NCBI RefSeq assembly: GCF_003334355.1
Contig: NZ_QOWP01000001.1
DNA from: Escherichia coli
GTDB lineage: Bacteria; Pseudomonadota; Gammaproteobacteria; Enterobacterales; Enterobacteriaceae
DNA length: 64,000 bases
Direction: 5' to 3' (one strand)
Of the stretch, positions 29,644 to 33,467 are shown piece after piece (position 1 is the stretch's first letter; every line of letters starts with the position of its first letter). Below the pieces are notes generated by a model. The model saw only the letters and a program-made list of their open reading frames with translations, was not told the origin of the DNA and ran no database searches. Made by a program: the position numbers and the translations under genes.

Positions 29644-31074
<1,431 letters not shown>

Positions 31075-31559
31075 GCTCTGTCCCAGCGCCGCCTCCTCAG
31101 AAAAGAGTCGGCGCTGAAATTCTCCTTTCTTTCTGGAAAGCGCCTCGCATAATCTGAAGAAAACCAATGTAATACGCTCATCTGGATTGTTACCGGTAGA
31201 TGCCCGGCGTATAGCTGATTCCATTATTCAACGCAGCGCCATATAAAGGGACAGATAATGGAATCGCTCTCAGAGAGAACCTCAACAGGCTACCAGCAAA
31301 TCCATGACGGTATTATTCACCTGGTCGATAGCGCCCGGACGGAAACGGTACGTAGCGTTAACGCGCTGATGACCGCGACATACTGGGAAATTGGCCGACG
31401 AATTGTCGAATTTGAACAAGGTGGCGAGGCCAGGGCTGCGTATGGTGCGCAGCTAATCAAGCGACAATCAAAGGATTTAAGTCTAAGGTATAAGCGTGGG
31501 TTCTCTGCAAAAAACTTACGCCAAATGAGGCTTTTTTACCTCTTTTTTCAACATGTTGA

Positions 31560-31663
31560 AATTCGCCAGACAGTGTCTGGCGAATTAACACCATTGGGAA
31601 TTCCGCAGACACCATCTGCAGAATTCCCATCGGCAAAGATTTGGCAGACGCTGTCTGCCAAAT
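31560..31663. repeat. Three tandem palindromic units at a 39-bp period inside the yhcG remnant
   Basis: Read directly: AATTCGCCAGACAGTGTCTGGCGAATT (31560-31586), GGGAATTCCGCAGACACCATCTGCAGAATTCCC (31596-31628, imperfect), ATTTGGCAGACGCTGTCTGCCAAAT (31639-31663). Confidence 0.8.
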
Positions 31664-31697
31664 TGAGAGGCTGTTTGATATTTCCACAGCTTTTGTA

Positions 31698-31726
31698 TTG
31701 CATCTCCTATTTTCGGTTTGTATATT
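31698..31726 (+). promoter_or_regulatory. Near-consensus sigma70 promoter for the orphan ORF (TTGCAT-N17-TATATT)
   Basis: -35 TTGCAT 31698-31703, 17-nt spacer, -10 TATATT 31721-31726; AAGGA Shine-Dalgarno at 31741-31745, 8 nt before the ATG at 31754. Confidence 0.6.
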
Positions 31727-31753
31727 CATGCAAATAAACGAAGGAAAGTTGCC

Positions 31754-32059
31754 ATGATTTACATTGAACAGCTTGAATTAATCCATAAAAGTGGTGATGT
31801 GTTGTATCCAGTAAAAATAACCAGAAAATCATCAGGAAAAACTGCCTTCCACCTTGTTCCATTCGGCTTAAATAAGACTCACGACCTTCTAGAGGTGGAA
31901 GATGCTTCAGAAGCAATTCGGCTGGTGATTGATGAACGTCATTCCATTCGCTGCAGTACACTTACAGCAACTATTACGAATAAAAAGGGCAAGCGAATTA
32001 AGCGGACAGGTATATACAGTATCAAGGGTGTTAACATAAAAGAATACAACGTCAGGTAA
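31754..32059 (+). CDS. Hypothetical protein, 101 aa, no recognised family
   Basis: ORF MIYIEQLELIHKSGDVLYPVKITRKSSGKTAFHLVPFGLNK...KKGKRIKRTGIYSIKGVNIKEYNVR in an AT-rich segment with good promoter and RBS; basic C-terminal tail, no signal peptide or TM segment. Start chosen at the Met with the RBS; the track ORF begins 12 codons upstream. Confidence 0.55.
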   Translation: MIYIEQLELIHKSGDVLYPVKITRKSSGKTAFHLVPFGLNKTHDLLEVEDASEAIRLVIDERHSIRCSTLTATITNKKGKRIKRTGIYSIKGVNIKEYNVR

Positions 32060-32101
32060 TGGCACAGAGCGGTCCGTCAGTTCAGGTTTGGCTCTGTGCC
32101 A
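32060..32101. other. Perfect 11-bp-stem inverted repeat with 20-nt loop immediately after the orphan ORF stop
   Basis: tggcacagagc ... gctctgtgcca; no flanking T-run on either strand, so not a canonical intrinsic terminator. Confidence 0.5.
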
Positions 32102-32134
32102 AAGATGGGTCAGGTCACACCTGATCTAATAAAT

Positions 32135-33467
<1,333 letters not shown>

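What the first reader, a model, noticed from the sequence alone, without database searches (positions are those of the whole stretch)
31075..32134. Strain-variable islet between gltD and yhcH: expected gltF-yhcADEF block absent, DUF1016 gene truncated, replaced by AT-rich DNA with an orphan ORF
Everything else in the window follows the K-12 gene order as I remember it, but only about 1.06 kb separates gltD from yhcH. In K-12 I recall gltF, the yhcADEF fimbrial cluster and a full yhcG here. What remains is a DUF1016/YhcG-like N-terminal fragment that stops after about 135 recognisable residues, then a sharp drop in GC content from about 31664 onward carrying a single small ORF. Low GC and a truncated neighbouring gene are the signature of a recombination or replacement junction in accessory DNA. 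DUF1016 proteins are putative PD-(D/E)xK nucleases, so this could be the remnant of a small defence or mobile-element-associated locus.
Basis: partly seen in the sequence, partly recalled or inferred. Interest (0 to 1): 0.65.

Follow-up and report, generated by a model that had tools for sequence, protein, structure and literature searches.

The report
Phage gene replaces half of yhcG
The 1.06-kb gap between gltD and yhcH is a common E. coli variant in which a small phage-type gene replaced the nuclease half of yhcG, breaking exactly at a DNA palindrome that turns out to be conserved inside this nuclease family across bacteria and archaea.

Summary
gltD ends at 31074 and nanQ/yhcH starts at 32135. 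Between them lie 135 codons of yhcG (DUF1016_N only), then 470 bp of AT-rich DNA carrying one 101-codon ORF.

The framing is off. Lack of gltF-yhcADEF is the majority state (3140 of 5426 complete E. coli genomes); K-12 is the minority. This exact arrangement occurs in about 721 genomes (13%), including HS, ATCC 8739, BL21 and O104:H4, and RefSeq already annotates it.

About 405 bp of the AT-rich DNA form a self-contained module found in prophages and integrative elements of Enterobacterales. In lambdoid prophages a relative sits in the lambda sieB slot.

- The ORF is under purifying selection (dN/dS 0.14-0.23).
- It has no transposase features, despite its RefSeq name.
- It folds confidently into a domain also found fused to HNH nucleases and McrB-type ATPases.

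The left breakpoint falls on the last base of the third of three 39-bp palindromic units in yhcG. Unexpectedly, this palindrome is conserved by compensatory change in DUF1016 genes across many phyla, and other rearrangements at this locus also break at it.

The islet is ordinary. The palindrome is the interesting part.

The parts
29656..31074 (+). gltD, the left anchor (core gene)
31077..31129 (+). 53-bp spacer specific to the island-less haplotype. It contains an inverted repeat (31084-31116) that looks like the gltBD terminator. K-12 has a palindrome plus the 7.1-kb gltF-yhcF block in its place.
31130..31257 (+). yhcG upstream region, homologous to the K-12 yhcF-yhcG spacer.
31258..31662 (+). 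yhcG codons 1-135 (DUF1016 N-terminal domain). It is a pseudogene fragment whose reading frame runs on into foreign DNA to a stop at 31735-31737.
31560..31663 (.). Three 39-bp in-frame repeat units, each a palindrome (31560-31586, 31599-31625, 31639-31663). Each encodes the peptide I-x-Q-T-x-S-x-E/K.
   Evidence: DNA fold z = -9.1. Unit number varies between alleles.
31664..32133 (+). 470 bp of AT-rich DNA with no K-12 counterpart. It replaces 780 bp of K-12-type sequence: yhcG codons 136-375 plus the 3' spacer with its terminal palindrome.
31668..32072 (+). Portable gene module, 83-85% identical to copies in Yersinia, Enterobacter and other Enterobacterales. The right end is sharp at 4-13 bp past the stop codon. 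In other hosts the left end extends further upstream.
31698..31726 (+). Conserved promoter-like block, TTGCAT-17 nt-TATATT, followed by AAGGAA (31741-31746). This assignment is inferred; the consensus scan did not call it.
   Evidence: Conserved in all contexts. Scan negative.
31754..32059 (+). 101-codon ORF (WP_000639208.1), labelled 'transposase' in RefSeq. It is a real gene of unknown function.
32060..32133 (.). Tail of the foreign DNA. It holds an inverted repeat with 11-bp arms (32060-32070 and 32091-32101) and a second short hairpin. The origin of 32073-32133 was not found.
32135..32599 (-). nanQ (yhcH), the right anchor.

Best explanation
The gltD-nanQ interval is a recombination hot spot with four common states in E. 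coli:
- (0) a single 27-bp palindrome only;
- (1) yhcG alone;
- (2) the K-12 state, gltF-yhcADEF plus yhcG, with the block bracketed by two copies of the palindrome;
- (3) this window.

State 3 arose once from state 1. One replacement removed 780 bp (yhcG codons 136-375 and the terminal palindrome) and installed 470 bp of foreign AT-rich DNA. The left breakpoint lies exactly after the last of three palindromic 39-bp repeat units inside yhcG.

The event destroyed the PD-(D/E)XK nuclease domain of YhcG. It also delivered a compact, self-contained gene module of the kind phages carry as 'morons': a conserved upstream block, a ribosome-binding site and a 101-codon ORF.

Shown here: the junctions, the population frequencies, the portability of the module, purifying selection on the ORF, and its confident fold.

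Inferred:
- The ORF is transcribed from its own promoter in the lysogen-like state.
- Its product is a small nucleic-acid-binding or target-recognition type domain, related to modules fused to HNH and McrB-type restriction enzymes. It would act in phage-host or restriction conflict (exclusion, or modulation of restriction).
- The palindromic repeats promoted the breakage.
For: Junctions.

Census of 5426 complete genomes:
- Direct gltD-yhcG junction: 3140.
- AT-rich segment: 726, of which 722 are at least 99% identical; it is at this locus in every record inspected.
- Empty site with one palindrome: 946.
- yhcG covering at least 80% of the gene: 3349.

Module portability:
- Next to a phage integrase at icd in Yersinia canariae.
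- Inside lambdoid or Rac-like prophages in Enterobacter and others.
- A 59%-identical homologue sits convergent with gene N in lambdoid prophages. That is the slot of sieB in lambda.

Real gene: dN/dS is 0.14-0.23 and the 101-102 aa length is conserved. There are 39 cluster representatives among 1.84 billion proteins.

Fold:
- pLDDT 93, pTM 0.82.
- In AFDB50, TM 0.68-0.80 to domains inside HNH endonucleases and McrB/AAA_5 ATPases.
- A distant homologue is translationally coupled to a type I hsdR gene.

Palindromes as breakpoints:
- A 78-bp (two-unit) length difference between alleles, and an 80-bp frameshifting deletion. yhcG length alleles are an O157 typing marker (LSPA-6, PMC3514354).
- A precise palindrome-to-palindrome deletion in E. 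albertii.
- The K-12 block is bracketed by palindromes that keep the empty-site flanks.
Against: - No promoter or terminator passed the consensus scans.
- No expression data were examined.
- The right junction (32133/32134) is not at a palindrome, and 32073-32133 has no identified source, so the recombination mechanism is not defined.
- No sequenced phage in the INPHARED collection carries the ORF. The phage link rests on prophage-like contigs.
- The functional inference for the ORF rests on predicted-structure similarity and a single operon context.
- The direction of change between states 0, 1 and 2 was not rooted on a phylogeny.
Confidence: 0.8

Rival explanations
1. The small ORF is a transposase or an insertion-sequence remnant, as RefSeq and UniProt name it. 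On this view the islet is the scar of a transposition event.
For: The product name 'transposase' appears in RefSeq and UniRef, and one AFDB entry is named 'putative IS1 encoded protein'.
Against: - No Pfam, NCBIfam, PHROG or PADLOC family matches it.
- No terminal inverted repeats or target duplications flank it.
- It is single-copy (median 1, maximum 2 places per genome) and lies at this locus in every record inspected.
- At 101 aa with a beta-rich fold, it resembles no transposase.
Confidence: 0.03
2. The arrangement is an intact two-gene unit: a stand-alone DUF1016_N protein plus the small ORF, working together. On this view it is not a truncation.
For: Stand-alone N-terminal ORFs are common enough that PADLOC holds short PDC-S02 profiles and NCBI has a product name for them. 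The 159-codon frame is open.
Against: - The frame leaves yhcG homology at codon 136 and ends after 24 unrelated codons in foreign DNA.
- In every other host, the module occurs without any DUF1016 neighbour.
- RefSeq marks the fragment as a pseudogene.
Confidence: 0.05
3. The breakpoint at the palindrome is coincidence. On this view the replacement was ordinary illegitimate recombination unrelated to the repeats.
For: The right junction is not at a palindrome. No homology was found between the donor module and the junction.
Against: The junction falls on the exact last base of a 25-bp palindrome. At least three other independent rearrangements at this locus also use the palindromes.
Confidence: 0.25

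Closest known systems
Phage 'morons' and the lambda sieB/ral accessory slot
   Same: It is a compact AT-rich module with its own upstream control region. It sits in prophages between or against early operons, and a 59%-identical homologue is convergent with gene N, exactly where lambda carries sieB.
   Different: There is no sequence or fold relation to SieB. No transmembrane segment is apparent. Here the module sits in the chromosome outside any prophage. No terminator was detected.
yhcG length polymorphism used in LSPA-6 typing of E. coli O157:H7
   Same: It involves the same gene and length variation within it. O157:H7 carries one repeat unit (1050-bp intact allele), while K-12 and this window carry three (PMC3514354).
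   Different: The typing literature read here treats it as a length marker. The palindromic nature of the units, and their use as breakpoints, is not mentioned there.
K-12 yhc (beta-class chaperone-usher) fimbrial island gltF-yhcADEF
   Same: It occupies the same gltD-nanQ interval.
   Different: It is an accessory island of a minority of strains (PMC5216030) and is not part of this window's lineage.
Target-recognition domains of McrB-type and HNH restriction enzymes
   Same: The predicted fold of the 101-aa protein superposes (TM 0.68-0.80, probability 1.0) on a domain inside proteins annotated as HNH endonuclease, McrB or AAA_5 ATPase.
   Different: Here the domain stands alone, with no catalytic partner adjacent. 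The domain's position and role in the fusion proteins were not examined. The idea that such variable domains read DNA is from my general knowledge of McrB and HNH type IV enzymes, and was not tested here.
Palindromic recombination or repeat elements (integron attC sites, REP/BIME, Rickettsia palindromic elements inserted in frame)
   Same: They are short palindromes whose pairing, rather than sequence, is conserved. In this case they sit at gene-cassette boundaries, and in-frame copies lie inside a coding sequence.
   Different: The palindrome is local to this locus in E. coli and not genome-wide. It sits at one fixed position of one protein family. No integrase or RAYT-type partner is present. 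Flanking copies are not the rule elsewhere.

Membership tests
DUF1016 / YhcG nuclease family (31258-31662) | N-terminal DUF1016_N domain | tested here: met
   Pfam PF17761, E = 4e-26, residues 19-111. 96% DNA identity to K-12 yhcG codons 1-135.
DUF1016 / YhcG nuclease family (31258-31662) | C-terminal PD-(D/E)XK (YhcG_C) nuclease domain in the same frame | tested here: not met
   No Pfam hit beyond residue 111. Homology stops at codon 135.
PADLOC candidate defence system PDC-S02 | Protein matches PDC-S02 profiles over their full length | tested here: inconclusive
   Strong hits (E = 3e-32), but only to the N-terminal ~110 positions of the long profiles. The defence activity itself cannot be tested with these tools.
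Transposase / insertion sequence (ORF 31754-32059) | Recognisable transposase domain | tested here: not met
   No hit in Pfam, NCBIfam or PHROGs. The fold is unlike any solved structure.
Transposase / insertion sequence (ORF 31754-32059) | Terminal inverted repeats, target duplication, multiple copies | tested here: not met
   No flanking inverted repeats or direct repeats of that kind. Median one place per genome, maximum two.
Phage moron | Carried in prophages as an insert between or against phage operons | tested here: met
   Homologues lie in lambdoid and Rac-like prophage contigs and next to an integrase. One sits in the lambda sieB slot.
Phage moron | Own promoter and terminator | tested here: inconclusive
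   The upstream block TTGCAT-17-TATATT is conserved in all contexts, but it falls below the scan threshold. No intrinsic terminator was called.
Phage moron | Base composition different from the surroundings | tested here: met
   GC 0.37-0.44, against 0.55-0.60 in gltD upstream.
Structured RNA family in Rfam (for the palindromes) | Match to a curated covariance model | tested here: not met
   No hit better than E = 4.

The most novel reading that the evidence does not exclude
DUF1016/YhcG nuclease genes throughout bacteria and archaea carry a DNA palindrome with a stem of up to 13 bp at a fixed position, six codons before the conserved Trp of the LSW(S/T)H motif, near where the nuclease half begins. 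Its pairing is preserved by compensatory change, while its sequence and the encoded peptide differ between subfamilies. Reading: it is a functional cis-acting DNA element of this nuclease family. It would be either a recognition or regulatory site for the protein, or a recombination site that makes the nuclease half exchangeable. That would explain why rearrangements at the E. coli locus, including the one in this window, break at it. I found no description of it in the papers or Rfam release I could search.
Probability: 0.4. Interest if true: 0.75.

Novelty: new member of a known kind. Interest (0 to 1): 0.45.

Why it matters
The islet itself matters little. It is a frequent, already annotated haplotype, and it corrects a K-12-centred expectation.

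Two by-products are useful.
- A 101-aa protein family labelled 'transposase' in hundreds of genomes is mis-named. It is a selected, phage-borne small gene. Its fold recurs fused to HNH and McrB-type restriction enzymes, which makes it a candidate player in restriction or exclusion conflicts.
- The conserved palindrome inside DUF1016 genes offers a concrete handle on a widespread, uncharacterised nuclease family that is a candidate anti-phage system. It is a defined oligonucleotide to test for binding, cleavage, regulation or recombination.

Tried and rejected
- **First structure prediction.** The alignment held only close homologues, and the model failed (pLDDT 45). It was replaced by a run with distant homologues.
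- **ORF family and structure searches.** Sequence searches against Pfam, NCBIfam, PHROGs, PADLOC and PDB sequences found nothing. Fold searches against solved structures found nothing significant.
- **Collection searches for the ORF.** tblastn against sequenced phages found nothing. Against plasmids it found only two partial Klebsiella copies and one mislabelled chromosome.
- **Fusion proteins.** P0049 and P0060 have no Pfam or PADLOC domain, so they gave no functional clue. A profile search with the word index did not recover the HNH or AAA fusions seen by fold.
- **Signal scans.** Promoter and terminator scans were negative.
- **Palindrome as a genome-wide repeat in E. coli.** Rejected: there are only 2 or 4 places per genome, all at this locus.
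- **DUF1016 genes generally flanked by the palindrome, like a transposon.** Rejected: in the protein-selected sample the family's palindrome is internal, and the upstream hairpins are unrelated terminators.
- **Palindrome as a sense-strand RNA hairpin.** Not supported: G:T and A:C mismatches are equally frequent, 15 against 16.
- **Wasted search.** One literature search was too broad to be useful.

Full report
**What is there.** gltD ends at 31074 and nanQ (yhcH) occupies 32135-32599 on the minus strand, leaving 1060 bp between them. Compared with the K-12 region:
- Identity runs through the gltD stop codon to 31076.
- It is lost for 53 bp.
- It resumes at 31130-31663 with the K-12 yhcG upstream region and codons 1-135 (91%).
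- It is lost again for 31664-32133.
- It resumes at 32134.

The open frame 31258-31737 matches only Pfam DUF1016_N. It leaves yhcG homology at codon 136 and stops after 24 unrelated codons. GC drops to 0.37-0.44 over the non-homologous stretch. That stretch holds one ORF, 31754-32059. RefSeq annotates the same two features in identical DNA of strain HS: a pseudogene 'DUF1016 N-terminal domain-containing protein' and a 'transposase', WP_000639208.1.

**How common it is.** Counts below are among 5426 complete E. coli genomes.
- The direct junction of gltD to the yhcG upstream region, without gltF-yhcADEF, is present in 3140 genomes, including O157:H7 and O145.
- The K-12 type upstream region is seen in about 1134. 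A published survey found the yhc fimbrial locus only in some phylogroup A strains (PMC5216030).
- The AT-rich segment is present in 726 genomes. It is at least 99% identical in 722 of them, with a median of one place per genome, all on chromosomes.
- The whole 31000-32200 arrangement is present in 721, including HS, ATCC 8739, BL21 derivatives and O104:H4.
- A fourth state has gltD and nanQ only 67 bp apart, separated by a single 27-bp palindrome. It occurs in 946 genomes.
- yhcG is also broken independently by IS2, by IS1, by two IS1 copies, and by an 80-bp frameshifting deletion.

The window carries one of four frequent haplotypes.

**The AT-rich DNA is a portable gene module.** Positions 31668-32072 are 83-86% identical to DNA in Yersinia canariae, Enterobacter cloacae and other Enterobacterales. 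Across all contexts the right end of the shared block is sharp, 4-13 bp past the stop codon. The left end extends 85, 110 or about 250 bp upstream, depending on the host. So the E. coli copy is cut within a longer upstream region.

The contexts are mobile:
- next to a phage integrase beside icd in Yersinia;
- inside a lambdoid prophage in Enterobacter;
- after the O and P replication genes of a Rac-like prophage;
- next to a large deaminase-domain protein and an S24 peptidase.

A 59%-identical, 102-aa homologue lies convergent with the N antiterminator gene in four lambdoid prophage contigs. In lambda itself that slot holds sieB, with ral nearby.

The upstream block TTGCAT-17 nt-TATATT plus AAGGAA is conserved in every context, including the distant one. 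It did not reach the threshold of the promoter scan, and no terminator was called. An own promoter is therefore inferred, not shown.

**The ORF is a real gene and not a transposase.**
- Against the Yersinia and Enterobacter copies, dN/dS is 0.14-0.23, and the length is conserved at 101-102 codons.
- It matches no family in Pfam, NCBIfam, PHROGs or PADLOC, and no PDB sequence.
- It has no flanking inverted repeats and is essentially single-copy.
- The family is small: 39 representatives among 1.84 billion clustered proteins, mostly stand-alone proteins of 93-117 aa.

In the AlphaFold database, the same fold (TM 0.68-0.80, probability 1.0) occurs as a domain within proteins annotated as HNH endonucleases, and within McrB-type or AAA_5 ATPases of 700-1000 aa. 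One distant homologue overlaps the stop codon of a type I restriction hsdR gene.

From general knowledge, the variable domains fused to McrB and HNH type IV enzymes are their DNA-reading modules. On that basis I infer that the 101-aa protein is a stand-alone nucleic-acid-binding module used in phage-host or restriction conflict. That step is inference and could be wrong.

**The breakpoint and the palindromes.** yhcG codons 101-135 are three 39-bp units. Each contains a palindrome: 31560-31586, 31599-31625 and 31639-31663. Folded as DNA, the stretch scores z = -9.1 against shuffles. The foreign DNA starts at 31664, the base after the third palindrome.

Other rearrangements at this locus use the same elements:
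- O157:H7 has an intact 1050-bp allele with one unit, against three in K-12. That is a 78-bp in-frame difference. yhcG length alleles are one of the LSPA-6 typing markers (PMC3514354).
- Strain E2865 has an 80-bp frameshifting deletion that removes units 2 and 3.
- The E. albertii type strain has lost everything from an internal palindrome to the terminal one. This leaves a hybrid palindrome followed by the empty-site flank.
- In K-12, the 8.4-kb block from gltF to yhcG is bracketed by two copies. The left copy keeps the left flank of the empty site, and the right copy keeps the right flank.

In E. coli the palindrome is confined to this locus. The right junction of the window's replacement is not at a palindrome, and 32073-32133 has no identified source. 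The exact mechanism therefore remains open.

**An unexpected generality.** I estimate about 35 chance matches across the whole collection. The loci come from many bacterial and archaeal phyla.
- The free triplets were perfectly complementary in 134 of 214 matches (chance is 1 in 64).
- 92 of the 120 loci carry a DUF1016 gene.
- Of the 89 perfect palindromes in loci with a YhcG-like match, 68 lie at nucleotides 200-480 of the gene.

To remove ascertainment bias, I collected 80 DUF1016 loci from viral contigs using peptide patterns from the nuclease domain only.
- Anchored solely on the protein motif W(S/T)H, 28 of 50 unique sequences have at least 8 of 11 Watson-Crick pairs around a fixed centre six codons upstream of the Trp. 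The background rate is 0.4%.
- On the alignment, 76.5% of cells pair, against 53% after shuffling and 30-39% after sliding.
- 147 cells carry changes on both sides, against 59 after shuffling.
- The covariation score is 0.497 against 0.154. None of 500 shuffles reached the observed values for these three measures.
- The stem differs between subfamilies (CCAGAC/GTCTGG, CGTATC/GATACG, CACGC/GCGTG, GTGTCACC/GGTGACAC), and so does the peptide.
- Where the peptide is QTxS, Ser is TCT in 24 of 24 cases (19% of Ser codons elsewhere in these genes). Gln is CAG in 23 of 24.
- G:T and A:C mismatches are equally frequent (15 and 16). This argues for a DNA-level palindrome rather than a sense-strand RNA hairpin, though the sample is small.
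- No Rfam family matches it.
- The papers I could search that mention yhcG or DUF1016 do not describe it.

I cannot say what it does.

**Verdict.** The islet is real but ordinary. It is a frequent haplotype in which a phage-type accessory gene replaced the nuclease half of a candidate defence gene. The most interesting result lies inside the finding's coordinates but was not part of it: the palindromic units at 31560-31663 belong to a structure conserved across the DUF1016 family.

Noticed in passing
window 31560-31663; loci L029-L228: A DNA palindrome with a stem of up to 13 bp (loop ACT/AGT, centred on a Leu/Val codon) sits at a fixed position in DUF1016/YhcG genes of many bacterial and archaeal phyla. 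It is conserved by compensatory change and by forced codon choice (Ser TCT in 24 of 24 cases). The number of units varies from 1 to 4.
   Followed up: partly
L039 3416-3480 (Escherichia albertii NBRC 107761): yhcG is deleted precisely from an internal palindrome to the terminal palindrome. This leaves a hybrid palindrome (AATTGGCAGAC-ACT-GTCTGCAGAATC) followed by the empty-site right flank.
   Followed up: yes
L026 3988-4054 (E. coli JA0265) and 946 genomes: In this 'empty' haplotype, gltD and nanQ are 67 bp apart with a single palindrome between them. K-12 has two copies bracketing the gltF-yhcG block. The direction of change (insertion or palindrome-to-palindrome deletion) is not resolved.
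   Followed up: partly
window 31754-32059: The RefSeq/UniProt product name 'transposase' (WP_000639208.1 and relatives in Enterobacter, Yersinia, Pantoea and Shigella) has no support from any domain, repeat, copy-number or fold evidence.
   Followed up: yes
L014, L015, L016, L025: yhcG is inactivated independently in other E. coli strains: by IS2 insertion, by IS1-associated deletion, by two IS1 copies, and by an 80-bp frameshifting deletion. This suggests the gene is often dispensable or counter-selected.
   Followed up: partly
L229 1-2269: A 36%-identical homologue of the small ORF overlaps the stop codon of a type I restriction hsdR gene (start 1961, hsdR end 1968). This is a single context from a short metagenomic contig.
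   Followed up: partly
L115 1147-1173 and 2333-2359: Two identical palindromes (AATTTGCCAGACAGTGTCTGGCAAATT) lie just upstream of a DUF1016 gene and near its 3' end, in a genome outside Escherichia. This resembles the K-12 bracket, but it is not the general rule.
   Followed up: no
28 loci among L031-L124 (for example L037, L040, L099, L108, L124): Perfect palindromes of the same family occur with no detectable DUF1016 gene nearby. They may be orphan copies or scars. Some may be chance matches or may be cut off by contig ends.
   Followed up: no
K-12 yhcG upstream region (window 31130-31257 equivalent): A paper reports a stationary-phase transcript, G0-10703, divergent from and overlapping the 5' end of yhcG mRNA in K-12 (PMC7967276). 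I did not examine whether it exists in this haplotype, whose upstream region is only about 80% identical.
   Followed up: no
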